A stretch of DNA of 64,000 nucleotides from Pecten maximus (Eukaryota). The position numbers were made by a program, and so were the translations under genes. Shown here in pieces: positions 8,511 through 60,142 of this stretch (position 1 is the stretch's first letter; each line of letters begins with the position of its first letter). The notes beneath the pieces were generated by a model. That model was not told the DNA's origin and did no database searches. It was given only the letters and a program-made list of their open reading frames with translations. Location: NCBI RefSeq assembly GCF_902652985.1, contig NC_047016.1, forward strand, positions 23,126,001 to 23,190,000, written 5' to 3'.

Positions 8511-8669
8511 CAAACAAGGAAAAGGTCTCTGTTTTTGTTCAAAGTTGTGTCATTTTTATTACTCGCATAGGAAACGTGGGTCGCAGATTTGTGCCAAGTC
8601 CTTATGAGATAAGCTACTATCTGTGACTTGGTGAGAAACAGTCGGGTTCTTACATATATCAGCACCAAC

Positions 8670-11166
8670 ATGTGTTTACTGTGGTCAAGTCTGGTGTGGT
8701 CAGCCCTCATTGTGCATGGTAAAGTTTGTATTTCAGATTATTCTCAATCGGACTATAAAAAATCCGTCAGTTGGTTGTAATGATTCGATGATAAATTGTG
8801 ATTATTGACTGAGTCGAGTCAAATTCGTGTCTTTTACTTTAGATTAACTTCATAAATTGTAAAAAGAACTTCCTATTATATGTGATTTTTTTTTGTCATT
8901 GTTGATTTGGCCTATTGAATATGACCTGAGAAACGCTATATTGTTTCACAGTTGAAATGACACCATTTGAAATAGCTTCCTTATACTTTAACCGCCAGTG
9001 ATCCGAGGATGTCCGAACGGCTGGGAAACGTTTGACGGGTCATGCTATTTTGTGTCTGACTTCCGGGAAGATTGGCCAACAGCATCGGTAAATTCGGCAT
9101 TATTAAGTATAGCATCTGTACATGTAAATTTATTCTAACTCTAAGAACTTTCCGACATGAATTTGTTATTTTCATTCGACATCAATTGAACTAGTGGTCA
9201 CACCAATATTGATGTGTTGTTTACACCTATCAAATATAGTTTTGTTCAACCGAAACAGGTAAAGGTCGAACCAAAGCAAACTATATGATCTTAATAATAA
9301 CATTTCGGTCATCAACGTTGTATATAACAGGTTGTCGGTATTTCTATTAGGACTATCAGCACCTCACAATACTAGTGTGGTTTTAAAATATCATATTGAC
9401 TATTAAAGAGGGGCGTTCGCTATTCCAATAATTGCTCAACACAAAATGGAATGCGAATACGTGTCTGTTTGGATGGTATTATATCTAATTAATGTTCTGC
9501 TTTGGATTATGTTTAAGTTCATCTGTTTATTTATGCTGTGGAAAATGATACTCTTATATAAGATTATTTCTGCTATGTTACATATATTTATTTCTGATGT
9601 AAAGGACGCTATATCATCTGATTATATTTGCTATGGAATAAAATGTGATTATTTTGGTGATTTAAATCGAGTCTATATCTCCCGATGTTTAGTGTTGATG
9701 ATCTCGTTCGATGTTGTCCATAACATCTATTTCTGTCTATTTTCAGACCGCATGTGGGCTTTATCATGCACATCTCGCTGAAGTTATCGACGAAGCAGAG
9801 GAAAATTTTCTCAAACAAGTAATCTCAAAATATCATGGTACGGCTTTCATGTTTATAACATTCTATATATAATTTATATCTAAGATAGTTAAAATACCGC
9901 TCGCGCGCTTCCATCCGAGTCTACAAGGAAGATAAATGTAAGAGGCTATAACTAGGGACTCGATAATTCAGTGCATTGCAGTATAAACGTTTATGGAAGA
10001 AGGTATTTCGAAAATATACATTCTAACGTGACAAAGTTTTGAAACAAACAGAAAATGCACCTAGAGAATAACATGGAATAATAGTAATGTTATATTGTTG
10101 GATCTGTTTGAGAGTTATTGTAGATATACTGTACCTGATACTCAGACAAGCGACTTAATATATTTACCCTTAAACCTCTAAAGCTGGGCACAGGAGTGAT
10201 GACAATTACTGGTTGGGAGGTTCAGACATGTTTGTGGAGGGAGATTGGCGATGGATGAACAGTGATCAACGTATAAATTATACCAACTGGTATCCGGGTG
10301 AGCCGAACAATTACCAGAACCATAGCGAAGACTGTGTGGTGGTGTACATCAACAACCATCAACAGTACCGATGGGATGACCGGAAATGCACGGAAAAAAA
10401 TAACTTTATTTGTGAGATTGGGTAGGTTTCTACAAGATCTTGTCATTTATACATGTCGGGTGTCATCGAAGAAGCATAAGACGCTAATCATCCAGAGGTT
10501 CTGGTTTTAGTATCTTTTTTCAAGGGTCTTCATACCAGTCTACGTATTTTGCCCTTAATTCATCGATTTTTAGTTAGAATGATGGTTCCGTTATTATGTC
10601 GGCATTTTCTGATGTTTTCCTAGTAAGAGCAATTCAACTATAGTATAGAAATATTGCTTTTTAACACATTATAGCATTGGAAAGTCTTATGGTAACATCC
10701 CTCTGTCATCTCTGTCATACGTGTTACTGTTGTATAACTTCATGTTAGTAAAGTATCGCAACAAGCCGCGTTTGTTATAATTAACTTTTAACAAAATGTA
10801 CAGATGTAGCTACCATATGCATTGCCACTAAATTCCCTTATTTCATGTTTCAGTGTAAACTGTTGCCCCTACCCCGTATCAGAAACCTGTTTTTTGTACT
10901 AAAATGAAAATGTTGATATATATGGAATGAATACTGTGTAAGGCGCTGAACTCGTGTAGTGTTATTTTCGCGGTTTAATGATATTTTGACCGTGAAAGCG
11001 CGAAAAGAAATCTGTCTCAAAAATTACCCGATGTATAGTATTGAATGATTTGAAGAGCCTTCATTCATATGAAAACATATTAACGAAATTATTGTATACA
11101 ATAATCAATTGATACTTTTGTTATTCTATTTTTAGAGATGATTCGGGAGCAATTGTGATTGGCTGA
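8670..11166 (+). CDS. C-type lectin gene 2 (perlucin-like, 165 aa, EPN/WDD)
   Basis: Exons 8670-8718 (MCLLWSSLVWSALIVH), 8999-9087 (GCPNGWETFDGSCYF), 9747-9837, 10184-10421 (YWLGGSD...GEPNN...EDC...WDDRKC...FICE), 11136-11166 (DDSGAIVIG*). 498 nt in frame. Confidence 0.9.
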
Positions 11167-11484
11167 AACCTGATGCAGTTGATGATATCGGTACTCATTG
11201 CTTATGTTGAAATCGTTGTCATTACGAAATAAATATCAAGGAATTATTATGTAAAATCTTATTTTTAAAGTTTGCTTATATAAGCATGCCGTTTCAATTG
11301 ATCTAGTACACTATCAAGTGATGAATGTCACACGCAGTAATAATTAGATTTCGATTCTAGTATAATACAAAGATAATACATGTATATCTTTATAGAGTAT
11401 GTCAGAACATGAGGTTCTCATGAATGTTTGAATTTATAATTGAGATATGCGAGGGCTGGCCAGTTATTTTGGTCCAATGAAACT

Positions 11485-12121: not shown

Positions 12122-12137
12122 AGATAAGCTATTATCT
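12122..12137. promoter_or_regulatory. Inverted GATA pair upstream of the lectin ATG (also at 8607, 18038, 24180, 30350, 36772, 42740, 49393, 60087)
   Basis: AGATAAG, short spacer, [T/C]TATCT, 53-76 bp upstream of the ATG in genes 2-10. Confidence 0.7.
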
Positions 12138-12194
12138 CCGATTCGTCAACGAAACAAGGGTCGGACTGTGTCTGCCGGTTTGTACGTACCGACA

Positions 12195-15058
12195 ATGGTG
12201 TACACAGTACGATTAGGTCTGATTTTAACCAGCGTAATTGTGCAAGGTATGGTATTTTTTTCTCATTTATCAAAAGGGTAATTAACACTTGCAATAATTA
12301 TTATCATTACTTTGTAAAACGGCTATATCTCGATTGGTACCAAGGATCAGGAAATTTACTTATTTGAGGGCCTGCTTTTACTGTTAACATAGGATCAAAA
12401 TGGGTTGTTTTAATTTCTTAATCCATAGTCAAAACGATCTCAATTAATTTTTTTTGTAAATACATTACAATGATTTTATTTCTTACTTGACATTTCTCGT
12501 AATATGTACCTATTTAAAATATCCATGAAATAAAACTATAATATCGGAACTGTCATACTGATATTCAAAAACAATTTCCGGGCACCATTTTATATATGTG
12601 TGTACAGTGATTATGTTATGACTCACGCCTGTATGTCAATCCGTAATAACGTTTCTGATTCCTTAATCTACAGTGGTCAGAGGATGTCCGAACGGTTGGA
12701 CAGCTTTCAATGATTCCTGCTATTTGATATCCTTTCATAAGGAAGATTGGTCAGCCGCGTCGGTAAATTATAGGACAACTCTAAATATTATTTATATCAT
12801 GTTAAACGACTTCAGATGTTCGAAAATATAATCTTATTTCGTTGCACAAAAATATGTAGTATCAAATATAACTTTACATATCAATATACATTTAACACTG
12901 TAATTTTATTGAAGGGCTGATCGGCCTATCTATCGAATTCATCTTTCACCATAAGTATTATCACCATGGATTGCATGTTCTGTTAATCAGTTTATATATG
13001 ACATGCAGGAAATAAAGAATGCTGATTTTGCACCAATCCATTAACAAATGATTCATTTACAGACTGATTGTCACTCCTACCATGGTTATCTTGCTGAGGT
13101 TTTAGATTCGAACGAGAATAACTTCCTGACTGAATTGGTCACACAATATCAAAGTAGGTTATGTTTCCATGTCTATTAAAATAATAAGATAATCGTTTTA
13201 CAGGAGTGAAATTTCGCTCCTGTTATACTTACAGAGTAAGACGTTTATTTTGTTTATATTTTTCGCATTGTCACCAAGAATGTGTTTAACTTGATATATG
13301 AAGAGATCATTACAATACAGCGGAAGCAGGAATCTTAGTTGCCTCCAGTGATGTAATATAACCATGCCCCTCTATTGTTTAGAACACGAAGACTACTGGT
13401 TGGGCGCTACCGACATATTTGTGGAGGGAGACTGGCGATGGAATGTAAATGGTCAACATTTAAAATACACCAACTGGCAACACGGGGAGCCAAACAATCT
13501 TCACTCCCATGGCGAGGACTGTTTAGCGGCCCACTATAGTAGCTCCCGCGTCCAATGGAGAGATTATGCATGCACGTCGAAACATTATTTCATTTGTGAG
13601 ACTAGGTATGTTGGTAGAACCGTTTTCTTGGAAAAGAACCATAGTAGTTCTCTGTTATAACATGTGTTTTAGAAAGGATAACACGTGTTTGTTATTCGCG
13701 CGTTTTAGGTCTTATTAAGATAAACATATAATTGTTGTTGGAAATAGTTGCATAAATACATGTATTTTCCTGTTTTTATTGCTTACAGGAAAATAAAACA
13801 ATATAAGTTTTAAAATAACCATAATAGACATATATCATGGTACAACTAAATGAAGCTTTATTCGTAACATATGTATTAAGCGAGGTTATCGTCAAAACTG
13901 TGATGTAGTTAACGAGGTTAACGCCAAAACTGTGATGTAGTAAGCGAGGTAATTGCTAACTTTATAGAAACACTGTAATGAGATCGCCATCATAATTATG
14001 AAGTAATTGGTGAGGTCTCCATCATAACTTTGAGTTAGTGACGTCATCATCAGAGCATTGATGTAATTAGTCTGGTTATCAACAGAACAGTGGTGTAGTT
14101 AGTGATGTTACTATCTGAACTGTGATGTAGTTTTTGATGATATCATCAGAACTGTGATTTAGTAAGATTATCTGACCTATGATGTAGTTTGTGGTGTTAT
14201 GATCTGAACTGTGATGTAGTTGTGAGGTTATCATCTGAACTGTGATGTAGTTATTGAGGTTACCATCTGAACTATGATGTAGTTAGTGAGATCATCATCT
14301 GAACTATGATGTAGCTTGTGGTGTTATTATCTGAACTGTGATGTAGTTTGTGGTGTTATTATTTGAACTGTGATGTAGTTTTTGATGTTATCATCTGAAC
14401 TGTGATGTAGTTAGTGAGGTTATCACCTGAACTGTGATGTAGTTTGTGGTGTTATTATTTGAACTGTGATGTAGTTAGTGAGGTTATCATCTGAACTGTG
14501 ATGTAGTTTGTGGTGTTATTATTTGAACTGTGATGTAGTTAGTGAGGTTATCATCTGAACTGTGATGTATTTAGTGAGGTTATCATCTGAACTGTGATGT
14601 AGCTAGCGAGGTTATCATCTGAATTGTGATGTAGTTAGCGATGTTAACATTTGAATTGTAATGTAGTTAGTAAGGTTATTATTTGAACTGTGATGTAGTT
14701 TGTGGTGTTATTATTTGAACTGTGATGTAGTTTGTGGGGTTATCATCTGAACTGTGATGTAGTTAGTAAGGTTATCATCTGAACTGTGATGTAGTTAGTA
14801 AGGTTATCATCTGAACTGTGATGTAGTTAGTGAGGTTATCAACTGAACTGTGATGTAGTTAGTAAGGTTATCATTTGAATTGTGATGTAGTTAGTGAGGT
14901 TATCATTTGATATTGGTGAAGATGTTGGATATAATTACCAAAGTTAGTTGGTAGATTGTATACTGATTACTGCTGTACGCACCATGGTTTTTAAACAGAA
15001 TCACATCCAATTTTGTCCTGTTTGTTTTTTCAGAGGCAGATGGATAACGTTCGGCTGA
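12195..15058 (+). CDS. C-type lectin gene 3 (159 aa, EPN/WRD)
   Basis: Exons 12195-12246, 12674-12762, 13063-13153, 13383-13605, 15034-15058 (GRWITFG*). Canonical splice sites, 480 nt in frame, six CTLD cysteines. Confidence 0.92.
13880..14910. repeat. 32-bp minisatellite, gene 3 intron 4
   Basis: Unit GAACTGTGATGTAGTTAGTGAGGTTATCATCT (starts at 14401 and 14433 are 32 apart). Confidence 0.95.
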
Positions 15059-17042: not shown

Positions 17043-18113
17043 CTAGAGTGTTGGAAGTCTGTACTTCTATATAAAATCATAAGTTTTTCTCTACATTCAA
17101 TGGTATTCATAGTGGAATTTGCAACGAAAACGGCTTCTGTCGGAGCACACATGTCACATATACTGTAGTGCAAAAATAGCAATGTATTAGCCTAGCGTCA
17201 TATCTGAAAACCTTTTGTACACACCTTCCAACATTATGGTCTACTACTCGCTGTTGTCACAGTCATCCCAGAGGAGATATATCGCAAGGATGCTGACCCA
17301 AATATGGATGAAGCTATTAAGATAAAACAAAAAAGAGTATGATCAGAGATTTGTTAACCAAGTTTGTTTAATAATTCAGTTTCAAGACGTTTGACCTTGC
17401 TAACCAAGGTATATAAGTCCAAATCTGTTTACCTCCGGGAAATATCAGAAGCATAAACCTTTTTCGATTTCCATATTAAAAACCACCATTTTCATCTCCG
17501 GGGGTCGAAATAGAATGAATGTTTATGCTTTTAACTTGTCGAATCCGGTCAAACATATGTCCCTTTTGAGTGTTAAGACGTCTGTAAGGATTGCTTTTTT
17601 GCGCAATATATGTGAACCACATAAGCTATTTACGTTCTCAAATAACATGTTTTTTTTTCGCATATTTTACAAAAATGTACAAACAGCTTAGCAAATAACA
17701 TGTCATCATCAAGACTCATGGTTAGAAATGATACATACTAACAATTGATCAGGCTAATTTTGTCCAATTGTACCAGAGTAGTGATTTATATTTTTAGATA
17801 TCACTAGATTTGCTATTAAGATGACCCTTAAATTTGAAATACAAATAGTTGTTTAAAATCTTATTCTGTTTAATGCAGGGGTAAGAATTGACATTGTTGC
17901 ATTTCAGTAAGTCAGTTATTTTTTTTAAAACAGGACATTATGATACATCTGGTAATTCATCAAGTTGTGTTATTATAAAACAAAGAAATTATATCGTCTG
18001 GACATTGTGTTTTCATGGAACATGAACTGCAGAAGTGAGATAAGCCGTTATCTCCGATTCGTCAACGAAACAATAAGGGTCGGACGGTATCTGCTGGTTT
18101 GTACGAACCGACA

Positions 18114-21100
18114 ATGGTATACACAGTACGATTAGGTCTAGTTTTAACCAGCGTTATTGTGCAAGGTATGGTAATTATTTCTCATTTATCAAAAGGGTAA
18201 TTAACACTTTTAATTATTATTATCATTACTTCTTTAAAACGGCTATATCCCGATTGGTACAAAGGATCAGGAAAATCACTTTTTTGAGGAATTGCGTTTA
18301 CTGTTTACATATGATCATTTATTGGAGATTGGATGTGTGAATTAAATGGGTTTTTTTATTGAATTTTTAATCCATAATCAAAACGATCTCAATTCATGTT
18401 TTTTTGTTAAAACATTGCAATGATTTTAATTTGTTTTTTAATTGACATTTCCCGTAATATGTACCTATTTAAAATATCCATAAAATAAACCTATAATATC
18501 GGAACTGTGACACTGATATTAAAAAAAACAATTTCGGGACACCATTTTATATATGTGTGTACAGTGATTATGTTATGACTCACGCCTGTATGCCAATCCG
18601 TAATAACGTTTCTGATTCATTAATCTTCAGCGATCAGAGGATGTCCGAACGGTTGGACAGCTTTCAATGATTCCTGCTATTTGGTATCCTTTCATAAGGA
18701 AGATTGGTCAGCCGCGTCGGTAAATTATAGGACAACTCTAAATATTATTTATATCATGTTAAACGACTTCAGGTGTTCGAAAATATAATCTTATTTCGTT
18801 GCACAAAAATATGTAGTATCAAAAATAACTTTACAATTCAATATACATTTAAGACTATAATTTTATTGAAAGGGCTGATCGGCCTATCTATCGAATTCAT
18901 CTTTCACCATAAGTATTATTACCATGGATTGCATGTTCTGTTAATCAGTTTATATATGACATGCAGGAAATAAAGAATGCTGATTTTGCACCAATCCATT
19001 AACAAATGATTCATTTACAGACTGATTGTCACTCCTACCATGGTTATCTTGCTGAGGTTTTAGATTCGAACGAGAATAACTTCCTGACTGAATTGGTCAC
19101 ACAATATCAAAGTAGGTTATGTTTCCATGTCTATTAAAATAATAAGATAATCGTTTTACAGGAGTGAAATTTCGCTCCTGTTATACTTACAGAGTAAGAC
19201 GTTTATTTTGTTTATATTTTTCGCATTGTCACCAAGAATGTGTTTAACTTGATATATGAATAGATCATTACAATACAGCGGAAGCAGGAATCTTAGTTGC
19301 CTCCAGTGATATAATATAACCATGCCCCTCTATTGTTTAGAACACGAAGACTACTGGTTGGGCGCTACCGACATATTTGTGGAGGGAGACTGGCGATGGA
19401 ATGTAAATGGTCAACATTTAAATTACACCAACTGGCAACACGGGGAGCCAGACAATCGTCACTCCCATGGCGAGGACTGTTTAGCGGCCCACTATAGTAG
19501 CTCCCGCGTCCAATGGAGAGATTATGCATGCACGTCGAAACATTATTTCATTTGTGAGACTAGGTATGTTGGTAGAACCGTTTTCTTGGAAAAGAAACAT
19601 AGTAGTTCTCTGTTATAACATGTGTTTTAGAAAGGATAACACGTGTTTATTATTCGCGCGTTTTAGGTCTTAATGAGATAAACATATAAATGTTGTTGGA
19701 AATAGTTGCATAAATACATGTATTTTCCTGTTTTTATTGCTTACAGGAAAATAAAACAATGTAAGTTTTAAAATAACCATAATAGACATATATCATGGTA
19801 CAACTAAATGAAGCTTTATTCGTAACATATGTATTAAGCGAGGTTATCGTCAAAACTGTGATGTAGTTAACGAGGTTAACCTCAAAACTGTGATGTAGTA
19901 AGCGAGGTAATTGCTAACTTTGTAGAAACACTGTAATGAGGTCGCCATCATAATTATGAAGTAATTGGTGAGGTCTCGATCATAACTTTGATTGAGTTAG
20001 TGACGTCATCATCAGAGCACTGATATAATTAGTCTGGTTATCAACATAACAGTGGTGTAGTTAGTGATGATATCATCTGAACTGTGATTTAGTGTTTGAT
20101 GATATCATATGAGCTATGATGTAGTTAGTGAGGTTATCATCTGAACTGAGATGTAGTTTGTGGTGTTATTATTTGAACTGTGATATAGTTTTTGATGCTA
20201 TCATCTGAACTGTGATGTAGTTAGTGAGATTATCATCTGAACTATGATGTAGTTTGTGGTGTTATTATCTGAACTGTGATGTAGTTTTTGATGCTATCAT
20301 CTGAACTGTGATGTAGTTAGTGATGTTATTATCTGAACTGTGATGTAGTTTTTGATGATATCATATGAGCTATGATGTAGTTAGTGAGATTATCATCTGA
20401 ACTATGATGTAGTTTGTGGTGTTATTATCTGAACTGCGATGTAGTTTTTGATGCTATCATCTGAACTGTGATGTAGTTAGTGAGGTTATCATCTGAACTG
20501 AGATGTAGTTTGTGGTGTTATTATTTGAACTGTGATGTAGTTAGTGAGGTTATCATCTGAACTGTGATGTAGTTTGTGGTGTTATTATTTGAACTGTGAT
20601 ATAGTTAGTGAGGTTATCATCTGAATTGTGATGTAGTTAGGGATGTTATCATTTGAATTGTAATGTAGTTAGTGAGGTTATCATCTGAACTGTGATGTAG
20701 TTTGTGGTGTTATTATTTGAACTGTGATGTAGTTAGTGAGGTTATCATCTGAATTGTAATGTAGTTAGTTAGGTTATCATCTGAACTGTGATGCAGTTAG
20801 TAAGGTTATCATTTGAATTGGGATGTAGTTAGTAACGTTATCATCTGAACTGTGATGTAGTAAGTAAGGTTATCATCTGAACTGTGATGTAGTTAGTGAG
20901 GTTATCAACTGAACTGTGATGTAGTTAGTGAGGTTATCATCTGAACTGTGATGTAGTTTGTGCGGTTATCAACTGAACTGTGATGTAGTTAGTGAGGTTA
21001 TCATCTGAACTGTGATGTAGTTAGTGGGGTTATCATTTGCTATTGGTGAAGATGTTGGATATAATTACCAAAGTTAGTTGGTAGATTGTATACTGATTAC

Positions 21101-24100: not shown

Positions 24101-24255
24101 ATCAAGTTGTGTTATTATAAAACAAAGAAATTGTATCGTCTGGACATTGTGTTTTCATGGAACATGAACTGCAGAAGTGAGATAAGCCGTTATCTCCGAT
24201 TCGTCAACGAAACAATAAGGGTCGGACGGTATCTGCTGGTTTGTACGAACCGACA

Positions 24256-27200
24256 ATGGTGTACACAGTACGATTAGGTCTAGTTTTAACCAGCGTTATT
24301 GTGCAAGGTATGGTAATTATTTCTCATTTATCAAAAGGGTAATTAACACTTTTAATGATTATTATCATTACTTCTTTAAAACGGCTATATCCCGATTGGT
24401 ACAAAGGATCAGGAAAATTACTTTTTTGAGGAATTGCGTTTACTGTTTACATATGATCATTTATTGGAGATTGGATGTGTGAATTAAATGGGTTTTTTTA
24501 TTGAATTTTTAATCCATAATCAAAACGATCTCAATTCATGTTTTTTTGTTAAAACATTGCAATGATTTTAATTTGTTTTTTAATTGACATTTCCCGTAAT
24601 ATGTACCTATTTAAAATATCCATAAAATAAACCTATAATATCGGAACTGTGACACTGATATTAAAAAAAACAATTTCGGGACACCATTTTATATATGTGT
24701 GTACAGTGATTATGTTATGACTCACGCCTGTATGCCAATCCGTAATAACGTTTCTGATTCATTAATCTTCAGCGATCAGAGGATGTCCGAACGGTTGGAC
24801 AGCTTTCAATGATTCCTGCTATTTGGTATCCTTTCATAAGGAAGATTGGTCAGCCGCGTCGGTAAATTATAGGACAACTCTAAATATTATTTATATCATG
24901 TTAAACGACTTCAGGTGTTCGAAAATATAATCTTATTTCGTTGCACAAAAAAATGTAGTATCAAATATAACTTTACATATCAATATACATTTAACACTGT
25001 AATTTTATTGAAAGGGCTGATCGGCCTATCTATCGAATTCATTTTTCACCATAAGTATTATTACCATGGATTGCATGTTCTGTTAATCAGTTTATATATG
25101 ACATGCAGGAAATAAAGAATGCTGATTTTGCACCAATCCATTAACAAATGATTCATTTACAGACTGATTGTCACTCCTACCATGGTTATCTTGCTGAGGT
25201 TTTAGATTCGAACGAGAATAACTTCCTGACTGAATTGGTCACACAATATCAAAGTAGGTTATGTTTCCATGTCTATTAAAATAATAAGATAATCGTTTTA
25301 CAGGAGTGACATTTCGCTCCTGTTATACTTACAGAGTAAGACGTTTATTTTGTTTATATTTTTCGCATTGTCACCAAGAATGTGTTTAACTTGATATATG
25401 AAGAGATCATTACAATACAGCGGAAGCAGGAATCTTAGTTGCCTCCAGTGATATAATATAACCATGGCCCTCTATTGTTTAGAACACGAAGACTACTGGT
25501 TGGGCGCTACCGACATATTTGTGGAGGGAGACTGGCGATGGAATGTAAATGGTCAACATTTAAAATACACCAACTGGCAACACGGGCAGCCAAACAATCT
25601 TCACTCCCATGGCGAGGACTGTTTAGCGGCCCACTATAGTAGCTCCCACGTCCAATGGAGAGATTATGCATGCACGTCGAAACATTATTTCATTTGTGAG
25701 ACAAGGTATGTTGGTAGAACCGTTTTCTTGGAAAAGAAACATAGTAGTTCTCTGTTATAACATGTGTTTTGGAAAGGATAACACGTGTTTATTATTCACG
25801 CGTTTTAGGTCTTAATGAGATAAACATATAAATGTTGTTGGAAATAGTTGCATAAATACATGTATTTTCCTGTTTTTATTGCTTACAGGAAAATAAAACA
25901 ATGTAAGTTTTAAAATAACCATAATAGACATATATCATGGTACAACTAAATGAAGCTATATTCGTAACATATATATTTGGCGAGGTTATCGTCAAAACTG
26001 TGATGTAGTTAACGAGGTTAACGCCAAAACTGTGATGTAGTAAGCGAGGTAATTGCTTGTAGAAATACTGTAATGAGGTCGCCATCATAATTATGAAGTA
26101 ATTGGTGAGGTCTCCATCATAACTTTGATTGGGTTAGTGACGTCATCATCAGAGCATTGATGTAATTAGTCTGGTTATCAACAGAACAGTGGTGTAGTTA
26201 GTGATGTTATTATCTGAACTGTGATGTAGTGTTTGATGATATCATATGAGCTATGATGTAGTTAGTGAGGTTATCATCTGAACTGAGATGTAGTTTGTGG
26301 TGTTATTATTTGAACTGTGATATAGTTTTTGATGCTATCATCTGAACTGTGATGTAGTTAGTGAGATTATCATCTGAACTATGATGTAGTTTGTGGTGTT
26401 ATTATCTGAACTGTGATGTAGTTTTTGATGCTATCATCTGAACTGTGATGTAGTTAGTGATGTTATTATCTGAACTGTGATGTAGTTTTTGATGATATCA
26501 TATGAGCTATGATGTAGTTAGTGAGATTATCATCTGAACTATGATGTAGTTTGTGGTGTTATTATCTGAACTGCGATGTAGTTTTTGATGCTATCATCTG
26601 AACTGTGATGTAGTTAGTGAGGTTATCATCTGAACTGAGATGTAGTTTGTGGTGTTATTATTTGAACTGTGATGTAGTTAGTGAGGTTATCATCTGAACT
26701 GTGATGTAGTTTGTGGTGTTATTATTTGAACTGTGATATAGTTAGTGAGGTTATCATCTGAATTGTGATGTAGTTAGGGATGTTATCATTTGAATTGTAA
26801 TGTAGTTAGTGAGGTTATTATTTGAACTGTGATGTAGTTTGTGGTGTTATTATTTGAACTGTGATGTAGTTAGTGCGGTTATCATCTGAACTGTGATGTA
26901 GTTAGTAAGGTTATCATCTGAACTGTGATGTAGTTAGTAAGGTTATCATTTGAATTGGGATGTAGTTAGTAACGTTATCATCTGAACTGTGATGTAGTAA
27001 GTAAGGTTATCATCTGAACTGTGATGTAGTTAGTGAGGTTATCAACTGAACTGTGATGTAGTTAGTAACGTTATCATCTGAACTGTGATGTAGTTAGTGA
27101 GGTTATCAACTGAACTGTGATGTAGTTAGTAACGTTATCATCTGAACTGTGATGTAGTTAGTGGGGTTATCATTTGCTATTGGTGAAGATGTTGGATATA

Positions 27201-30300: not shown

Positions 30301-30425
30301 TTATATCGTCTGGACATTGTGTTTTCATGGAACATGAACTGCAGAAGTGAGATAAGCCGTTATCTCCGATTCGTCAACGAAACAATAAGGGTCGGACGGT
30401 ATCTGCTGGTTTGTACGAACCGACA

Positions 30426-40780: not shown

Positions 40781-42792
40781 ATCAAGAAGCATCTAGCAAT
40801 CCAACAAAAACAAATAGTATCATACATATAATTAGTATTCTTAGTTTTCCATGTAGTATTTGCTAACTGCCAACTGGTTTATATACGTATGTTTAATTGG
40901 TTGGCGGCGAAATTTACAAAAGAATGACTGTTATCTTGATTAAAATCCATCCTTATGAAAATAAAATGTAAAATATGAATCGCACACAATACATTGTAGC
41001 GTTTTAGCATAATCTGTCTTTTTGTCAAATTGAAGCGGTATATTTTACTTTAAATATACTTCATTGCATTGTTCTAAGTAAAAACTAAATTCAATGAATC
41101 ATCCCTTTTCATAATAAACTTATTAATGACATTTTTTATTTACCGGTAATTCAATATTCAGTAGAAGTTAATTTAATGCTTTGTAAATGGGATCAGGGTT
41201 GTGATCAAAATGTAAAATGAGAGTTCGTTAATTATCAATCGATATTAGGTGCAAAGGCAAACGGTAGAAAAAGCAGGCATGATACCATCAATATATCAGG
41301 GAACACTCCGCGGTCACCGACCAGCAGAAAACTATGCACACTTTAAGAACGCAAATAAAGAGTATGACGAGCTACTGTATTAGTCAAGTCATTTAACGCG
41401 TCACTTACGATAGATAGCGTCAGTGAATGTCTTGTTCAATACATATATCGCCATGAATCTTAAAAACGAAATCAAATAAGTAGGTTGTGACTGACGAAGT
41501 GTTCAAGTCTAAAACATATAAATAAATATAGATAAACAGATGTATAACGTAGTAAAACAGATGACGAATGAAAACAATACGACAATTTGATCTCGCGAAC
41601 AAACGGCTGCAACTATTGGAATTTTATAGACGTACTGCAATACCAAATAAAGTGCACTTTGATAAGACGTAGAACTATAAGCATTATACGGCACGACCTT
41701 TCTCAAGGGAAAGCTTCTATCACGCCCATCACACTGAGAATGTAGTGTATAAGTGTTCACAAGTATCGATATATTTTTGAGGATATTGGATATGTGCTTA
41801 TTTCATGAGATAAGAGTAACATCAGTATAAGTTCATCAATTCTTCTCCGTATTGATGCTTAAATACTGTGGCCCTATCAAATATATTCCCTGAAGATTTT
41901 AAACAAATACATGTACATATATGCACTTTTTATGTGTGTGTATCTGATATAAATTGTAACCCCCTATAGTAGTCAGTTGCGTGGCGGTTCAAGGGGAGCA
42001 ACTCTTAATATGATCTGCTAATGAATCGCCCTGGTGTCATCAACGTTCCTAAACTTCCCTAAACGAAAGCACTATTGGATTTAGGAAAATAATTCTTTCC
42101 GTATATTCTGCAAAGTTACCATACGGAAAATTCTAAGTAAATATACGAAATAGGTACCGTATTCTTCAAAGTAGGTAGACTTATCCTACCCTGACGCTTT
42201 CCTAGAATTAAAAGCCGAATGATAAGTATAGAGCTGAACAGGGTGTTCGTCCTTCTAGGACTCGTCAGTGATGATAGGGGCTAAAATTGGAAATTAAGAA
42301 GTAGTATATAGACCACCCACTCAGGTCTAGCCAAAGGTTTGAATATAGAAGGGTTGGGTTACCTTGATATCACGATGTGATGCATGTTTTGATTATGGAT
42401 ACTTTACAAAGTAATTCATTAAGTATATATGCAATAAACAATGGTAACGTGACATGCAGGTAACGATAAACCCCTAATGGCTAATAGTCCATCTGACTGG
42501 TTTATAATCCGGCAACCTCAAAAGTTTCCAGCACATACATTTCATCTATATTTGAAGACATAAATATATATATAAAAAAAAAACAATTCATGACCACTGT
42601 CCATCGATTTGGTTGATTATGTTTACAATCGGACACCACTTAACAGCATCGTCCCCAAAATCCCGACGATGTATTATTCTGAAATGTTCAGAAATTAACC
42701 TGCTATCGTTCTATATCGGAATACGGTCAGCTTGTACAAAGATAAGACGTTATCTACGATTCGTAAAGGTGACGGGAAAGGCGTCTGTGACA

Positions 42793-45700
42793 ATGGCGTG
42801 TATACTACGGCTAGGTGCTGTATTGGCAGCCATAGTATTGCACGGTAAGAAAGTATTTCAACTTGATCCTAATCTTAGTTAGTTTAGTGAGTTTAGGAGG
42901 AGATAACCCACGAGTGCTATATTTCCATCGTTATATGAGAGAAAGAGGCCACTAAAAGAGGGATCCCTAAAGCATCATGGGTTTTTTCTTCTGTATATTC
43001 TTTAGGGATTTTAAAGAGAGACAAATCTCTGCTCAATCGCACCACTTGGGATTTTTTTATCCCATCTACTGTCCTTATCTGTACTTTGCTTTCTTCCGCT
43101 GGTTTCCCCTTGGTACCCGTCCTCATATGGCCCTGACATTTGTTTGCAAAGATGCTTAAAAATTATACAATGTTAACGCAGTGACAATTCGGGGGCAAAA
43201 ACAACATCGACGTGCTAATCAAATCGTAATTCTAACTCGAAATCGATAGAAGGAGGGCAAATGTGAAAATAATATAGCTCACATGGATACCCATGGAAAA
43301 AGTGCAAGGAGACTGATACCATGTGTTCCGATGGATTAAGCGTCTTCAGCTTTGAATACGAAACCCAGGTCAAATCCGCTTTAGGTATATCCTCAAAATT
43401 ATATGGTGGTTAATAACGGAACTAGCAGGCATGCCAACGGGCATCGAACCCGTGACGTCATATTGCAAAATGAAATGACACATTACCCTATGACTCCACA
43501 ATGTCAAACAGGGATGTTCCTAGTTATAAATAAAGATTAAAGATTGGGAAATAGAAACAATCACGATTCTCATACGGTGTAGTTGTTAACTATTTTTTAG
43601 TTATTACGTCGTAGTTAAAGTATGATCGAGGTACGCGACTGATGTCTTCGGTGATTGATTATAAGTTCCTAAGGGTATATTTGGTCGACAGGGTCAACAA
43701 TGGTTTGTTGTTTAAAAGACAATGCACTGAAAATATACCTATAAAGGAAGAATGTTGCAATATCTCTGTTGGCTGTTCTGATAAGCTAAATGTCATCTCT
43801 GCCTCGTATGGAAACAAGACATGGGACACAGTCAGTTTGTCTATTTGTATATAACAATAGTCTGCTGAGATATCGGATCGAAAATCCCATAAGATTTTGT
43901 CGACCTGGTATTCAATCATTGTCACTATTCCATCCGCGATGTATGTCATTTTGACCGTCTCCAAATATGGTACGAATACACTCTCCGATTTACTCTCCGA
44001 TTTATTCTGCTACCATTACTCGCCATCTGTTACAGTTGTACAGTCGCCACATATGCCTGCTCTCACTGCATCTCTCAGGAGGCAAGTTATTGTTGGGACC
44101 CTGCCGAATTGGGGTACACCATGTAAATGAGGAGCCCCAGGATAAGATCTACCATATTCCTTTGATTGTTAATTTATGGTAGAGGGCCATTTAAAGAGAT
44201 ATATTCTTTGCTTAGGAAACATTGAATCTTATCATTTCTTTGCTCTGACCTTTCTTTCGCTGATCTGATAAATTTAGTGTGTCTGTTTTCTACCCGATGT
44301 TCGGAGGAAGTAAGCAGTAAACCCCCTCATTCAAACAAAAAGTTTAACTAGACACTGGAGATTGCTAAAAATAATCCGAATGATGTGGTTTGCGAAATGT
44401 CGTAGTGAAAATCATTGCTATCTGTTTAATTCCTTATGATACTACTAATCAGTTTCTCGAACTCATATCAAAGTAATATCGTACGGTCAATGATGTAATT
44501 GTTGCGATTATGTTGTATTTTCAGTGATTCAAGGATGTCCGAACGGCTGGGAATCATTTGATGATTCCTGTTACTTTGTGTCAGACATGAGAGAAGATTG
44601 GTCAGCCGCATCGGTAAAGTTTGGGCCCCATTGTAATATAAAAGGGGATAAGAAGGAAATCACACACGTGATTTTTGCGCGAAAATTTGCTTTGTCGCAA
44701 AATTGCTAATGCCTTTCGATTCTAATTAACTCAATATCTCCACTTAATTTTTCTTCCCAAAATAACAATAAAAAATAGAATTATCTGCAAATGCTTAGTG
44801 ATTACAGAGGCATTGTATTTAAGCTGATAAATTTAGCATATAGGCAAACAATGTATTTGGGGAAATTATTTTTTTCGCTATTACGCTATCTTGTGTTCCC
44901 CTCCTAGCTCAAACAATGTTCATACTCATCTATTTATTGTTTTCCCTTTTCAGAACACATGCCGCCTGTACCATGCTCATCTTGTCGAGATCGAAAATGA
45001 ACACGAGGATAACTACTTGAAACAAATCATCACCAAATATCACTGTAGGTTGTCTTTCCTGTTTTAATAGATACATCAATTCATATTAAAACACCCTTAA
45101 TATGATATTGCGATATATCATTGATCTGATTTCCCTTCTGTATCTGATCCCCTACTTGTGGGAAAATAAATTTATCGTTGTAAAACAGTAATTGAATGTT
45201 TACCTTCGTTTAGCCAACATGACGTGTTGGATACCACCTCATTAACTATATATATTTGGTTTTAACCAATTTTTGCATGCACTATGCATATCTTAATTAT
45301 TTCCCAAAATAAAGTATTTAAATTTGATTCTTTGACTGCCTGTCCAACCATTTTAACAAACTTTTTTTTATTCTTTTGTCATTTTGACTGGTATATTTGA
45401 CCATTTAATTGGTGCAAATATCTTATACGCCACATTCTATACCGGATCCATAAAAAGGCATTGTCTTTGTATTAATATTTAAAATCTTCAAAATTACTTA
45501 ATGAAGAGATTTGGTCGTTATTCTAAATATTTTGCGAAAATAGAAATGCAAATAGAGGTTAGACAATTAGTGGTTGTTGTATGATATCTCTTTGATTCTC
45601 GTCTCTTATTTTTCAAAAGTTACAAAAACACAAGCTTAAGTAAGTGTTTTTGTAACTTTGAAAAATTTACCAAGGATAGTGAAAGAAAAGCCATATATAA

Positions 45701-48012
45701 CAACCACGAGTTTGTGTGACCTGTTTCTACCACAATAGAAACGCTATTATGAGGATGAATTGACTTGTTTTGTGTCAACGTGTGTTCTTTTCATAATATC
45801 AGATGGAATGTAAGGATATAACCTAGAGTAAAATGCCGCTAATTAATATGCAAAGATGACAATTTCGGATATGAATGGAAATATTACAATTTCTGACAAA
45901 TCATAATAACAAGTAATAATCAAGTTTGTTATAGAAATATTAAGATATTTTGAATATGACAAAAGCCAGAAGACCTTCAAGCGTTAGCCAATCGAAACGC
46001 ATTGAACAACGTGATTAAAAAATAGGCCCGGTCAAAGGTCGCCATATCAACCAATCAAAACGTATTTGAACTTTATTCATAAACTACTCTTATTCAACAG
46101 CTGTAATAATTATTTCAGCCTTGGGAGTTAAATAACAGACACATATTGTGGTAGAAACAGGATTACATAATACAGTATATTGCTTTAGGTCGCTGTTACA
46201 TGTTGTTATTACCAGGAATATTGTAGCTAGATGAATCGCAACCCTAATTTTGAACGTAACACAGGTGGTTTTTCGATGCAATTGAGATGAAGCAGAACTA
46301 TAATGTCATTTATTTTATCTAGATGGACAAGTACATGATAGATACTTTTGGTTGGGTGGAACCGATTCATTTGTTGAGTCAGACTGGAAATGGATTGAAA
46401 GCGACAAACGTTTAACTTATACCAACTGGCTTCCGGGCGAGCCAAATGATCACCATGGCGAGGATTGCCTAGTAGCGGAGCTGAGTGGTTCTCGCTTCTT
46501 TTGGAGAGATCAGGAATGCACTTCGAAATTCAACTTTGTTTGTGAGATCGGGTATGTTCTCATGGCCTCCATTAGGATCTCAGTTTGATATTTTCTTTTT
46601 TTAACTCTGTGATAAAAAGTTAGGGGCGTGTTTGTTACTTGTCGATTTGCCTGGTAGAGTGTGGCTGAAGCCTGATTTGGCCTAAATTGGTATGGCGGAT
46701 GTCGTCGATTTGATATAGATTGGTGTGGGAGGTGTCGTCGACTTGACCTAGATTTGCATGGCAGGTGTCGTCGTCCTGACCTAGATGTGTATGGCGGGCG
46801 ACGTCGATTGGACCTAGATTTGTATTGCAGGTGTCGTCGATTGGACCTAGATTTGTATGGCAGGTGTCGTCGATTTGACCTAGATTTGTATGGCAGGTGT
46901 CGTCGACTTGACCTAGATTTGTATTGCAGGTGTCGTCGATTGGACCTAGATTTGTATTGCAGGTGTCGTCGATTGGACCTAGATTTGTATTGCAGGTGTC
47001 GTCGATAGAAAAAAAAGACACTTACCCTACGGGAACAGCTGGTCTTATTATTAGCATGGTCACTTTTCAAGGGTCTTCATACATATCAAGAAGGTTTTTA
47101 TTTTAGATATTTTGACCTCGTTCAATCGATTTTTAGAATTACGGTTTCTTCTGTCGACATTCAGTATTGTTTTTCTTAGTGTAGAAAGGCGCTGTTAATA
47201 TATGCAATATTTCTTATCGTCTGTCGACCCGTTTTATTTGACTGTACTTACTGTAGTTATCTATTATATTATAACGACAGAACACCGAATAATTAATCGT
47301 GTAAGCCACTCAATTGAGTAGCAATACTTATGAACTAAATTAAAATAATTACAGTACAGATCAATATTTTGATTAGTTAGATAGTTAATTAGTTAATTAA
47401 TGCCATCTAACGGCGTCACAAAGTCTAACACTCGTCAGTGATGTCAGAGTTGAAGATATTGAATAATTTTGAAAAAACACTACCAAAATACGTTTAAATG
47501 TTCTGAACTCCTTCGATCGTTCAAATATTCAAACGTGCCATAAACAGCTTACCATAACCTGAAAGTATCCACAAGCTAAGCGTACCACTCAGTTATCTAA
47601 CGTTTAAACCCATGTACAAGATGTAAGTGGAATATCCAAGTACGTTATTTATGTTTGTGTACGTGGGTATTATAACCTATATAGAAGATAATATGTGACG
47701 CTTTTCTTGATTTTGACGTTACATGTTATAGTACAATATGAATAATTTCGATCTTTCAAATATTTTAAACGTAGATAGCATACCATAAGCTGAAAGTGTC
47801 CGCCAACTTTGCGAGCCACTCAGTTATCTAACGTTTAAATCTATGTTCAAGATGATATCTGACGCCTTTCTTGATGTTGACATTACATGTTATAGTACAA
47901 TATGTATTTTCTTCATGTAAATATTATGTAATAAAATTAAGGTTATGGTTTTAATTATTAGCATTTTATTTTCAGTGGTGATTCTAGTGGAAGTGGAATC
48001 GTTATAGGATGA
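42793..48012 (+). CDS. C-type lectin gene 8 (165 aa, EPN/WRD)
   Basis: Exons 42793-42844 (MACILRLGAVLAAIVLH), 44525-44613, 44954-45044, 46323-46551, 47976-48012 (GDSSGSGIVIG*). 498 nt in frame. Confidence 0.9.
43096..44330 (-). mobile_element. Degenerate Penelope-like retroelement remnant in gene 8 intron 1
   Basis: Minus-strand MIEYQVDKI...QQT.VI...LFPYEAE resembles Penelope-type RT (LEFLIDNIF...QQT.GIPMG...LFLYSYEAE); same remnant in gene 9. Ends approximate. Confidence 0.6.
45560..46170. mobile_element. Non-autonomous DNA element with internal inverted repeats, gene 8 intron 3 (paralogous copy ~53540-54040)
   Basis: CCTGTTTCTACCACAATA (~45720) pairs with TATTGTGGTAGAAACAGG (~46144); hairpin centred on GCTTAAG at ~45635. 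Confidence 0.7.
46680..47005. repeat. 33-bp minisatellite, gene 8 intron 4
   Basis: Unit GACCTAGATTTGTATTGCAGGTGTCGTCGATTG, about ten copies. Confidence 0.95.
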
Positions 48013-48768: not shown

Positions 48769-49450
48769 AAAAGTATAAATATAACATTACAAACAATCCA
48801 AACGACTTTAAAATCTTGAAGAATGGATCAGTCCATTAACAATGAACAGCTGTTTAAAAATTGTATATTGTAGAAACAGAACGATACTATTTGAATACAG
48901 GCAAATGAGAACTATCCACAAATTTTTTTTAGGTTATACCCTCTTTTGAGATCCTCATTCACTCCAGGAAACCTGCGCGCGCCAGATAGGCAAAATGACC
49001 AGAGGCAGGAAAGATGTTTTTTTTTTTTTTTTTTTTTTAAATAGTATCTTAAGTCAAACGCAGTTATTCAAAACAGGAAATAAGCATATCCTTGAAAATT
49101 TCAAAACGACCTCATCTTAACTGAATGACAAAGGGCCATGTTGTCCCCTTGACATGTATAAAGACATTGAATTAAACGCATATGATCTACAATACTTCCA
49201 TGAAAAGTCAAGCTTGAAGTCATGACGGAAATAATAATAATACATAAACAGTAAATACAGGGGAAAAGTAGGTGAAGTTAGAAATATGGAGCTGTAACGC
49301 ATTCACTGTGTATAAGGAGTAATCTGATAATTGTTATCGCCCAAAAGCAGTACTTGTTTTATGATAGATAACTTTTTGTATGCACTATAGCGAGATAAGA
49401 CGCTATCTCCTGGATTATGCCCCAGTAAATTCCCTCGATAATATACTATC

Positions 49451-56882: not shown

Positions 56883-59800
56883 AACTTGTACACGCCTCTT
56901 CAGTAACATCTCATTTGTTGTATGAATCTGAACAGAATAAACTCCTTACTTGACGAAGTTTCAGTTTCATGTTTGTTTTTATTCTTTGTAGAAACAAATA
57001 AAACTAGACTGGTAGCGAATATATTTTCTTTTGTTCAAATACTTGATTTTATTTCATTTATGATGAACTGGTTACAATGTGTGTTTCGTATAGAAATCTA
57101 ATAATTGAATTTACTAATCACAAACATTGATCCATTCCTCGGGCTCTGTTTACTACAAAAGTATAAACATAACATTACAAACAATCCAAACGAATGTAAA
57201 ATATTGAAAGAATGGATCAATCCGTTTTATAATCAACAAATCTTATTTAAATGCATATTGTAGAATCAGAATGATATAATTGGAGCGAGAACTAACAACA
57301 AGAATACTATAGTTTACACCCCTCTTTAGAGATCCTCTTTAACTTGAGGAAACATGCGGCAGAAAGGCATACTCAATACTGATCACAATATTTTTATTTA
57401 GACATTTTACATTTCTTTCATTTCATCTAAAAGATTAAATTATATTCGCGGGAAATGACATTTGATGACGTAACCGGAAACCCGCATGCTATTAGATCGT
57501 GACCCGGATATAATGTTCACCTGTTTTACGAGAGAAACATGACGATTCTAAAAACAGATGATTATCGAACATAACCGGATTATTTTTGCATTTGTTGAGA
57601 CACCAATGTGCTAGAATTTCTATTAAGAATATTTGTTCTCATCATGTACAGTACATCTTTATTTTAAAATTGACTGGTCTGATCTGGAATTTGATTTTAC
57701 ATGACCACAAGGCCACGTTACTGTCATTTAAGGATTGAATGAAGTTATGTTGAGGTGTATGGGGGTATAAACCTCAATAGGTCTTGAGACAAATTTATTA
57801 TGAACTGCTTCGCAGTTATGTATTTATAGTTTATTGATTTTTCTTTTTTCTTTTGTTTGTATAATATTTTGTCCTTCACAAATAGGGACTTGTGCAAGTC
57901 TACCACGATACTTACCGAAATGTACGTCATCACTCTTCGTCTACATATGGTTATTACTTTCAGGATTTCTTTCGTGAACAAATTTAATAACGAATTAAAA
58001 CAAATATTATTTTTAATGGAATTTATTTCATATAAATATTAAAAAATATAGTCCCCTATTTTTAGAATGACAAATGTATTCCTACGCCGGACTTGATATA
58101 GTTCATTGAAAAATGACTTGAGTTAACTGTGGTAGGTTCATTGAGTCTGAGTTAAGTGGAAATATGAAAATATACTTTTGTAAACACTTGGTATGTCTGT
58201 TTACCCTATAACTCGATCTCATAACCTGTCTTTTTACTCTATGACTCATAACCTGTCTCATGATACTTCAATACTTTTGGTCTGATTTCAATACACAAAA
58301 TGTCAGATTTTATTAATCAATAGATCTTGCAACATCATCTTCTAACAGGGGCAAAGACCTTTGATGAGACTAAGTAATGAGTAGCCAGAGTTTCTTCTTG
58401 CCACCACACCGGAAATTAGACACTGACAAGCTCTCATACAGTTGCTAACTTTGGTTTGGGAACACATTCTCAAATAACAGATGATCACATGCTAAGTTCA
58501 GGATTGGATTTTTCCAAAATTGAAGGGTTGTGCCCCTTTGTTTTGTCCCTATGCATCATATTCTAGCAGTTGGCTATTCATATTTGTATTCATTTGTTCT
58601 ACACCTCATTATAATACATCTGGTGATATTTGAAATTGTTTGACATATGGAATAGGTAATTATATTGAGTCACATTGACTTCAGTTCTTCAATTCATCCA
58701 GTTCAAGATTTCTGGAAGTTACAAAAGAGGTGAAACTTTTCAAATTCATTTTAGTTTCCATATAGGTAAGATTTTAATATTTTATTGTTAAGGTTGTTTA
58801 CTTTATATTGTTGGAGGCGGAGGATTTATTCATATAAATCGAATATAACTTTTATATAACAAGGTTTCCACTTGCCTGTTTGTATGCTTATAATTAATGT
58901 CCTTTCTTTTGATAATATCTCTGTGAGTTATAGTCCCTCTCATGAGTGTTTACTTTTCTTTCTGTTAAATATCTTAAACTGTTTCTTTTCATTTATTTAA
59001 GTTTCCAGTTTCCTTTTGGTAAAAAATTCTCATTTTTTTTTTTTTTTTTTTTGAGAATTGGCTGGTTTTCAAAATTTGCTTTTTGTTTTGCAATGCATCA
59101 ATATTTTGCATGTCTCAATAACATATATATAGACATGCTCTGTTCATGCTCGAGTTTCCTTAAAACTGTTGTTGGACATTTTGAATTGGCGGATGTGTCT
59201 GATTAGCACATAATTAACTCAAAATTGTATACGATTTCATCAATAATTATTTCTCTTTGCTTTCATTTTAAAATTATCTGACTCAAACAGTTTTCTCCTT
59301 GTGGTTTAAATCTAATTGTGACATTTAAAATTCATTAAAGACCACTGGAGCCAGACATGCAAAAACCTTGAAAATCTTTAACTCAATAACCTTTAGGCCA
59401 ATATACCTGGTATTGGGCCTGTAGTATCCTGGTGAAGTGATACAAAATTTGTTTAAAAAACGAACGACAGTGACGTCCAGTCAAGGTCACAGCAGTCAAA
59501 CATGCTTAAATATTTAAAACTTTTTTTCTCAATATCAATATGAGGTCAAGAGAAGCACATGATTCATATATATATAGGCCCATATGGTCTCTCTTTGGTT
59601 GCTGCATAATACCTCTAAAAGTCTTTCAGGCTCGCATGTCAAAGGTCAATGTCACTATTTCTATCAAATGAAAATCAGTTGCTTGGAATACTACATGTAG
59701 CTTCAGATTTGAAAGTCAAATGTTAAAGATAATGTTACTATAGATAGAAAAAATCTTGCACATATCAATGAAAATCCATGCTTTCCCTAGATGAGAAAGT

Positions 59801-60142
59801 ATAAGATACTAGCTCACAGATTCTCTTTTTTTTATAAATATTCTTCACGTGGATAGATACGACAGCATTTTACATACTTTAATATATAAATACTTATTAC
59901 TGGTTAGCTTGTTATAATAATAATAATAATAATAATACATAAACAGTAAAGACAGAGGAAAGGTGTGAGAGAAGTAAGGAATATGGAGCTGTAATGTATT
60001 CACTGTGTATAAGAAATAATAAGATATTTGCATACTGCCCGAGAGCAGTTCTTGTTTTATGAAAGATAATGTTTTGTATTATAGCGAGATAAGACTATCT
60101 CCTGGATTGTGTTCCAGTAAATTTCCTCGTTAGTTTACAATC

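What the first reader, a model, noticed from the sequence alone, without database searches (positions are those of the whole stretch)
8607..60100. Conserved inverted GATA pair at the position where gene 1 has a TATA box
Seen: AGATAAG plus a short spacer plus [T/C]TATCT begins at 8607, 12122, 18038, 24180, 30350, 36772, 42740, 49393 and 60087, 53-76 bp before each ATG. It is retained between subfamilies whose upstream DNA otherwise looks unrelated. Gene 1 has TATATATAG at the equivalent distance. Known: palindromic GATA sites bind GATA factors strongly, and GATA factors drive blood-cell and gut genes. Inference: a shared core-promoter switch co-regulates genes 2-10, with gene 1 regulated differently.
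Basis: partly seen in the sequence, partly recalled or inferred. Interest (0 to 1): 0.7.

Follow-up and report, generated by a model that had tools for sequence, protein, structure and literature searches.

The report
Paired GATA sites in lectin promoters
Nine of ten neighbouring scallop lectin genes keep the same pair of facing GATA motifs just before their start codons, which likely lets a GATA transcription factor switch them on together; GATA motifs also sit in front of gene 1 and of many related genes elsewhere, so this is likely a familiar kind of immune or gut promoter rather than a new switch.

Summary
The window is a tandem array of ten secreted C-type lectin genes (gene 8 is a 'perlucin-like' protein of Pecten maximus). 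AGATAAG-N1-3-[C/T]TATCT stands 53-76 bp before the ATG of genes 2-10 (9 found, 1.1 expected). The nine copies are four independent promoter lineages (dS 0.9-2.4), and the 12 motif bases are the only invariant columns of 45. That is a clean footprint of selection, with no hairpin covariation. GATA binding is likely: in 16 lectin paralogues elsewhere, WGATAAG occurs 13 times in the last 100 bp before the ATG against 0.5 expected; 14 C1q genes show the same trend. The 'gene 1 uses TATA instead' part is weak: a spliced RNA contig runs about 50 bases upstream through gene 1's TATA-like run, and gene 1 has its own WGATAAG at -143. Start sites are not mapped, so the core-promoter role stays open. Verdict: a real cis-element of a known kind (GATA-driven immune or gut effector promoters).

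The parts
8607..8622 (.). Inward-facing GATA pair, gene 2 (AGATAAG on +, AGATAG on -)
12122..12137 (.). GATA pair, gene 3 (AGATAAG on +, AGATAA on -)
18038..18053 (.). GATA pair, gene 4
24180..24195 (.). GATA pair, gene 5
30350..30365 (.). GATA pair, gene 6
36772..36787 (.). GATA pair, gene 7
42740..42755 (.). GATA pair, gene 8
49393..49408 (.). GATA pair, gene 9 (AGATAG on -); further WGATAR sites at -126, -89 and -85 from the ATG
60087..60100 (.). GATA pair, gene 10, spacer 2 bp shorter (AGATAG on -); a further AGATAA at -79
2333..2339 (-). Gene 1's own WGATAAG site (CTTATCA on +), 143 bp before the ATG; the longest spliced contig begins 8 bases after it, at 2347
2398..2417 (+). Gene 1 TA-rich run (TATAWAW at -78 and -67), inside a spliced RNA contig in run X3
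2476..4146 (+). Lectin gene 1, exons 1-4 (2476-2527, 2813-2901, 3037-3127, 3915-4146); last exon from about 4801
8670..10421 (+). Lectin gene 2, exons 1-4; last exon from 11135; RNA contigs begin at 8654, 8654 and 8633
12195..13605 (+). Lectin gene 3, exons 1-4; last exon from about 15032
18114..19563 (+). Lectin gene 4, exons 1-4
24256..25705 (+). Lectin gene 5, exons 1-4
30426..31875 (+). Lectin gene 6, exons 1-4
36848..38671 (+). Lectin gene 7, exons 1-4
42793..46551 (+). Lectin gene 8, exons 1-4; matches the annotated 165-aa 'perlucin-like' protein P0001
49451..54434 (+). Lectin gene 9, a chimera: promoter and exon 1 of gene 10 type (49 of 51 bases), exons 2-4 of gene 8 type (370 of 405); a decayed gene 10-type exon 2 lies at about 49983-50075
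60143..62254 (+). Lectin gene 10, exons 1-4

Best explanation
The motif is a conserved pair of inward-facing GATA consensus sites in front of nine secreted C-type lectin genes, and it likely works as a double binding site through which a two-finger GATA factor switches these TATA-poor promoters on in a shared tissue, likely gut/digestive gland or blood cells. Shown: the sites, their conservation across four old promoter lineages, the lectin genes and their splicing, GATA genes in the genome, and GATA enrichment before related genes. Inferred: the pair arose once in the ancestor of genes 2-10 after the split from gene 1, and was copied with each duplication (gene 9 took it along with gene 10's promoter). 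Each half is likely read as WGATAR by the C-terminal finger of one GATA molecule, on roughly the same helix face (10 bp apart; 8 bp in gene 10), just upstream of the start region. Gene 1 is likely under the same kind of control through a single site at -143. The pair is a subfamily version of a family-wide GATA promoter, not a switch that sets gene 1 apart.
For: The 12 motif bases are the only invariant columns among 45 in nine copies, while synonymous divergence between the four lineages is dS 0.9-2.4 and the flanks are near random identity. The one variable base inside the sites (T/C, in g2, g9 and g10) keeps WGATAR on the minus strand but breaks pairing; there are 0 compensatory changes in 7 pairs. 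In 16 outside lectin paralogues with a blind exon-1 pick (16 kept of 20; the picker found 6 of 6 window controls), the last 100 bp hold WGATAR 25 times against 5.2 expected and WGATAAG 13 times against 0.5. Three control words show no such excess (8 vs 4.0, 5 vs 5.1, 5 vs 3.7), and neither does -400..-150 for WGATAAG (1 vs 1.2). Fifteen decoy ATGs give 4 WGATAR against 4.8 expected and 0 WGATAAG. In 14 C1q genes (14 kept of 40) the counts are 17 vs 4.9 and 6 vs 0.6; 4 histone promoters have none in 200 bp. Three genes with two GATA fingers each are present. Gene 2 contigs of three studies begin after the motif, at 8654, 8654 and 8633. In C. elegans, ELT-2-dependent immune genes, lectins among them, are enriched for proximal TGATAA (PMC4446034, passages).
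Against: No binding, chromatin or reporter data. Only four independent lineages: with invariance at four-fold sites of 4-5 in 12-15, the chance of a 12-base invariant block after a generous search correction runs from 2e-4 to 0.19, depending on the neutral rate assumed. Start sites are not mapped, and at the g4-type promoter contigs run through the motif in 4 of 4 runs. The exact pair geometry is not shared outside the array: among 16 lectin and 14 C1q promoters, inward-facing neighbours are 12-31 bp apart, never 10, and the loose pair pattern occurs 10 times in 249 kb of paralogue loci against about 6 (up to 12) in shuffles. The tissue of the RNA runs is not given, so the tissue claim rests on analogy. 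The histone control is small (about 3 sites expected).
Confidence: 0.6

Rival explanations
1. The forward AGATAAG is a true core element at about -30 that stands in for a TATA box (GATA-box core promoter, as described for chicken beta-globin and rat PF4), and the reverse site is its partner.
For: No TATAWAW between -100 and the ATG in genes 2-10. The furthest gene 2 contig begins 26 bases after the motif's first base. In outside lectins, 6 of 10 forward sites fall at -44 to -54 from the ATG (scan test P 0.003 for an 11-bp window chosen after seeing the data, 0.04-0.05 for 20-30 bp). The PF4 core-promoter GATA is described in PMC3820676 (passage).
Against: Distance to the ATG is not distance to the start site. 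Reverse sites outnumber forward ones in outside lectins (18 vs 10), and C1q forward sites do not cluster (P 0.6-0.8). Contigs cross the motif at g4-type promoters. Gene 1's TATA-like run is inside a spliced contig.
Confidence: 0.17
2. Neutral inheritance: a palindrome in the ancestral promoter survived by chance, helped by recent duplication and gene conversion.
For: Five of the nine copies (g3-7) are recent, and g9 copied g10's promoter. At the highest neutral invariance tried (0.45) the corrected chance is 0.19. The pattern has 1057 matches genome-wide.
Against: 0 of 33 flanking columns are invariant against 12 of 12 motif columns; the same word is enriched before unrelated secreted-protein genes.
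Confidence: 0.08
3. The palindrome is bound by a dimeric factor other than GATA.
For: Inward-facing symmetry with nearly fixed spacing (10 bp in 8 of 9 copies) suits a homodimer.
Against: Each half is a full WGATAR; single WGATAAG sites are enriched in the wider family; gene 10 tolerates a 2-bp shorter spacer.
Confidence: 0.08
4. Transcription starts further upstream (for example from the TATAAAA at -140 in genes 4-7), and the motif is a 5' UTR hairpin or another RNA element.
For: All 6 copies folded form a 5-7 bp hairpin; contigs cross the motif at g4-type promoters; TATAAAA or TATAAG words lie at -135 to -140 in genes 4-7, 9 and 10.
Against: No covariation; the only changes break pairs, and a loop G is invariant. 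Only 1 of 6 folds beats its shuffles clearly (z -3.4; the others -0.04 to -1.7). The crossing contigs are accompanied by intron cover, so they may be unspliced or read-through RNA. Gene 2 contigs begin after the motif.
Confidence: 0.07

Closest known systems
ELT-2/TGATAA-driven intestinal immune genes of C. elegans, including clec-85 and clec-186 (PMC4446034, passages)
   Same: C-type lectin effector genes with GATA motifs enriched in the proximal promoter.
   Different: There the sites are scattered over about 500 bp and factor dependence was tested; here a fixed inward-facing pair lies within 80 bp of the ATG and nothing is tested functionally.
Serpent-dependent GATA sites of Drosophila immunity genes (Petersen et al. 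1999, title seen in the reference list of PMC4446034; otherwise recalled)
   Same: GATA sites near invertebrate immune effector genes.
   Different: From recall these pair with NF-kB sites; my simple kB pattern found none in the last 150 bp of any of the 10 genes.
GATA-box core promoters: rat PF4 (Aird et al. 1994) and chicken beta-globin (Fong and Emerson 1992); PF4 passage and both titles seen in PMC3820676, the papers themselves not seen
   Same: A GATA word where a TATA box would be expected, in a promoter without TATA.
   Different: The position relative to the start site is not shown here; it is a double site; the PF4 passage says GATA binding represses.
Palindromic double GATA sites bound with help of the N-terminal finger (Trainor et al. 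1996; Waltzer et al. 2002; as summarised in passages of PMC8844375)
   Same: Two GATA words in opposite orientation; two-finger GATA factors are encoded in the genome.
   Different: From recall, the GATA-1 palindrome is a compact back-to-back full-plus-partial site; this pair is two full sites facing each other 10 bp apart. PMC8844375 found no function in vivo for the added stability on such sites.

Membership tests
GATA-factor cis-element | WGATAR consensus | tested here: met
   Both halves match in 9 of 9 copies; the forward half is always WGATAAG.
GATA-factor cis-element | Conserved above its flanks | tested here: met
   12 of 12 motif columns and 0 of 33 flank columns invariant; dS 0.9-2.4 between lineages. 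Only four lineages, one species.
GATA-factor cis-element | Cognate factor encoded in the genome | tested here: met
   Three loci with two GATA fingers each, on C18 (two) and C7.
GATA-factor cis-element | Factor binds and is needed for expression | not testable with these tools
   Needs EMSA, CUT&Tag, reporters or knock-down.
GATA-box core promoter (TATA replacement) | No canonical TATA box near the start | tested here: met
   No TATAWAW from -100 to the ATG in genes 2-10; genes 4-7 have one at -140.
GATA-box core promoter (TATA replacement) | GATA word about 30 bases upstream of the start site | tested here: inconclusive
   Gene 2 contigs begin 26-47 bases after the motif start; g4-type contigs cross it; contigs cannot show starts.
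GATA-box core promoter (TATA replacement) | TBP/TFIID and GATA both bind the site | not testable with these tools
   Needs binding assays.
GATA-1-type compact palindrome | Full site with an adjacent inverted partial site, back to back (geometry recalled; papers not held) | tested here: not met
   The sites face each other, starts 10 bp apart (8 in gene 10).
TATA-box promoter (gene 1) | Transcript starts about 30 bases downstream of the TATA word | tested here: inconclusive
   One spliced contig (X3, depth 53) reaches 2347, upstream of both TATA words; the other 3 runs did not reach far into exon 1. This leans against, but a minor upstream start could explain it.
Structured RNA hairpin | Compensatory base changes | tested here: not met
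   0 of 7 pairs change on both sides or on one side only; 2 pairs depart by mismatches.
Single-domain secreted C-type lectin genes | Signal-peptide exon, Lectin_C domain, spliced transcript | tested here: met
   Pfam PF00059 for exon 4 of 3 of 3 genes tested; open reading frames for 10 of 10; GT-AG joints in RNA contigs for genes 1-3.

The most novel reading that the evidence does not exclude
Scallop secreted lectin genes use an oriented GATA box in place of TATA as a family-wide core-promoter element that fixes the start site: an invertebrate counterpart of the chicken beta-globin and PF4 GATA-box promoters, doubled into an inward-facing pair in this array.
Probability: 0.17. Interest if true: 0.6.

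Novelty: new member of a known kind. Interest (0 to 1): 0.33.

Why it matters
Almost no cis-regulatory elements are mapped in bivalves. A 16-bp footprint kept across four old promoter lineages, plus a strong GATA excess before 16 other lectin and 14 C1q genes, points to a GATA regulon for secreted immune-type proteins in scallop, like the ELT-2 and Serpent regulons of worm and fly. It also offers a compact tissue-specific promoter for reporter work. If the site proved to replace TATA, it would extend a mechanism known from a few vertebrate blood genes to molluscs. As it stands, GATA sites before immune or gut genes would not surprise a specialist.

Tried and rejected
Genome-wide element or transposon end: the pattern has 1057 matches against 747 for the reversed control, many in tandem repeats; nothing points to a dispersed repeat. 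Relic of the pair in gene 1: MAFFT aligns 2379-2397 with the motif, but 196 of 1950 random 200-mers score as well, so I rejected it. Pair pattern in paralogue loci: of 10 hits in 249 kb, one (L027, spacer 8) lies before a clear exon 1; the L011 hit is beside exon 2, not exon 1. Rows dropped: 4 of 20 outside lectin genes (L017, L019 first gene, L022, L030) and 26 of 40 C1q loci had no exon-1 pick at score 5.9 or more, or an ambiguous one; the cut-off was set after seeing the window controls, and two kept genes (both in L023) have related promoters. Start-site mapping: only assembled contigs were available; no cover upstream of gene 2 proves nothing, and the 5' breaks at 18110 are graph breaks. 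Cross-species test: orthologous proteins exist in Argopecten irradians and Mizuhopecten yessoensis, but no DNA for them was found in metagenome contigs and no relative genome is held. No further cluster member was found 20 kb to either side. Literature: searches gave no paper on GATA sites in scallop lectin promoters; the library lacks most subscription journals, where much shellfish immunology is printed, so this is weak. PMC3927085 and PMC3730108 (passages) gave nothing useful. PMC231211, PMC4594664 and PMC4968217 are not held. No supplements were read.
Full report
What the window is. The window lies on contig C2 of a 918-Mb genome and holds ten genes on the + strand. Each has a signal-peptide exon and three exons that build one C-type lectin domain (Pfam Lectin_C for 3 of 3 exons tested). 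Gene 8 equals a 165-aa protein named 'perlucin-like [Pecten maximus]'. RNA contigs show GT-AG joints for genes 1-3 and a fifth exon. The ten best genome-wide hits of the gene 2 exon all lie in the window, so the array is complete here.

The observation. The copies are not independent. Genes 3-6 differ by dS 0.02-0.03 and gene 7 by about 0.3. Gene 9 is a chimera with gene 10's promoter and exon 1 (49 of 51 bases) on gene 8-type exons (370 of 405). That leaves four lineages (g2, g3-7, g8, g9/10) at dS 0.9-2.4; gene 1 is saturated against all of them. Far-upstream blocks are still homologous between lineages, so the motif descends from one ancestor.

Is it selected? In a 45-column alignment of the nine copies the invariant columns are exactly AGATAAG and TATCT, 12 of 12, with 0 of 33 others. 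Anchored on the motif, 4 of 100 upstream and 0 of 30 downstream columns are invariant across the four lineages. At four-fold degenerate sites 4-5 of 12-15 are invariant, and at third positions 42-46 of 148. A 12-base invariant block has a corrected chance of 2e-4, 9e-3 or 0.19 for neutral invariance of 0.25, 0.35 or 0.45. The flanks suggest the low end, so selection is likely but rests on four lineages in one species.

DNA site or hairpin? The copies can fold, but no pair covaries, and the two pairs that vary do so by mismatch. The T/C change in g2, g9 and g10 turns the minus-strand site from AGATAA into AGATAG, still WGATAR, and the G after AGATAA is invariant although it is unpaired. That is the pattern of a protein-read sequence. 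The genome encodes three two-finger GATA genes; by recall one looks GATA1/2/3-like (C7) and two GATA4/5/6-like (C18).

Is it special to genes 2-10? I fetched the loci of the outside hits and picked exon 1 with a score blind to GATA words. It recovered 6 of 6 window genes and gave usable picks for 16 of 20 outside genes. In their last 100 bp, WGATAR occurs 25 times (5.2 expected; 12 of 16 genes) and WGATAAG 13 times (0.5 expected; 10 of 16 genes). Control words of like composition, the -400..-150 zone and 15 decoy ATGs show no comparable excess. Fourteen C1q genes, kept of 40, give 17 vs 4.9 and 6 vs 0.6. Four histone promoters have none, a small control. So GATA words near the start codon are a general trait of these secreted-protein families. 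The 10-bp inward-facing pair is particular to this array: elsewhere such neighbours are 12-31 bp apart.

Gene 1. TATATATAG lies at -67, and a second TATAWAW at -78. In run X3 a 453-base spliced contig of depth 53 covers 2347-2526 and joins exons 2-4, so some spliced RNA begins at least 50 bases upstream of both words. The other three runs did not reach that far, and a contig cannot show the main start. Gene 1 has a perfect WGATAAG on the minus strand at 2333-2339, eight bases before that contig's end. The contrast 'TATA in gene 1, GATA in the rest' is therefore doubtful. A suggested relic of the pair in gene 1 scored no better than 10% of random windows.

Where transcription starts. From the joint table, gene 2 contigs begin at 8654 (X1 and X3, two studies) and 8633 (X9), 11-32 bases after the motif's end; the loose-end table was cut, so the shared end is only a weak hint. 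At the g4-type promoter, contigs cross the motif in 4 of 4 runs and reach 240 bases or more upstream, but intron 1 is covered too in 3 of 4 runs. This may be unspliced or read-through RNA from five collapsed copies. The start is unresolved. Forward sites in outside lectins cluster at -44 to -54 (6 of 10; P 0.003-0.05 by window size), which keeps the TATA-replacement idea alive, but C1q sites do not cluster.

Comparison with what is known. Proximal TGATAA enrichment in ELT-2-dependent immune genes, including lectins, is described in C. elegans (PMC4446034, passages). A GATA motif in the rat PF4 core promoter is described in PMC3820676, whose reference list also names the chicken beta-globin 'specialized TATA box' paper (passages; the originals not seen). 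The N-terminal finger stabilises binding on palindromic sites, yet no such function was found in vivo for Serpent (PMC8844375, passages). In one assay a tandem site bound GATA1 at 17 nM, a single site at 100 nM and a palindromic bait at 140 nM (PMC13534945, passages), so 'palindromic means strong' should not be assumed. Six searches found no paper on this element in scallops, within a library that lacks most subscription journals.

Verdict. A real and probably functional double GATA site, well spotted, that belongs to a known kind of promoter. The co-regulation of genes 2-10 by GATA is likely; the core-promoter role is open; the special status of gene 1 is not supported. Interest 0.33.

Noticed in passing
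window 49230-54434: Gene 9 is a chimera: gene 10-type promoter, exon 1 and a decayed exon 2 (about 49983-50075) sit in front of a duplicate of gene 8's intron 1 and exons 2-4. A promoter swap by unequal recombination.
   Followed up: partly
window 15682-18660 and equivalent units: RNA contigs cover the intergenic DNA and intron 1 of the gene 3-7 units (a 2179-base contig in X3), which may be read-through or nascent RNA across the tandem copies.
   Followed up: no
exon 4 of genes 3-6 and 10: The sugar-binding motif differs among near-identical copies: EPN (g3), EPD (g4), QPN (g5, g6); gene 10 has DPN. Possible diversification of specificity; the motif's role is recalled.
   Followed up: no
window 13871-14910, 19984-21036, 26133-27173, 32296-33153, 38910-40639: A 32-bp tandem array of 23-50 copies in the last intron of genes 3-7; a 33-bp array after exon 4 of genes 8 and 9 (46674-47006, 54533-54767).
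   Followed up: no
window 54791-56342: A 777-bp tandem duplication at 99.6% identity, very recent or an assembly artefact; it holds a short element that looks SINE-like by eye, though ARAGORN finds no tRNA.
   Followed up: no
window, about 140 bp before the ATGs of genes 4-7, 9 and 10: TATAAAA (genes 4-7) or TATAAG (genes 9, 10) words at -135 to -140; absent from genes 2, 3 and 8 at that place, and expected often in AT-rich DNA.
   Followed up: partly
L027, 80-27 bp before the predicted ATG (G000:C2 near 13.73 Mb, minus strand): A distant lectin paralogue has four GATA sites in 55 bp, including an inward-facing pair with a longer spacer.
   Followed up: partly
L012 (G000:C3:26168000-26173900): Two lectin genes stand head to head with less than 1 kb between their first exons; each has a forward GATA word 44-49 bp before its ATG.
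   Followed up: no
window 1-1000: A more GC-rich stretch that looks like a decayed integrase remnant by eye (GC 0.46); not tested.
   Followed up: no
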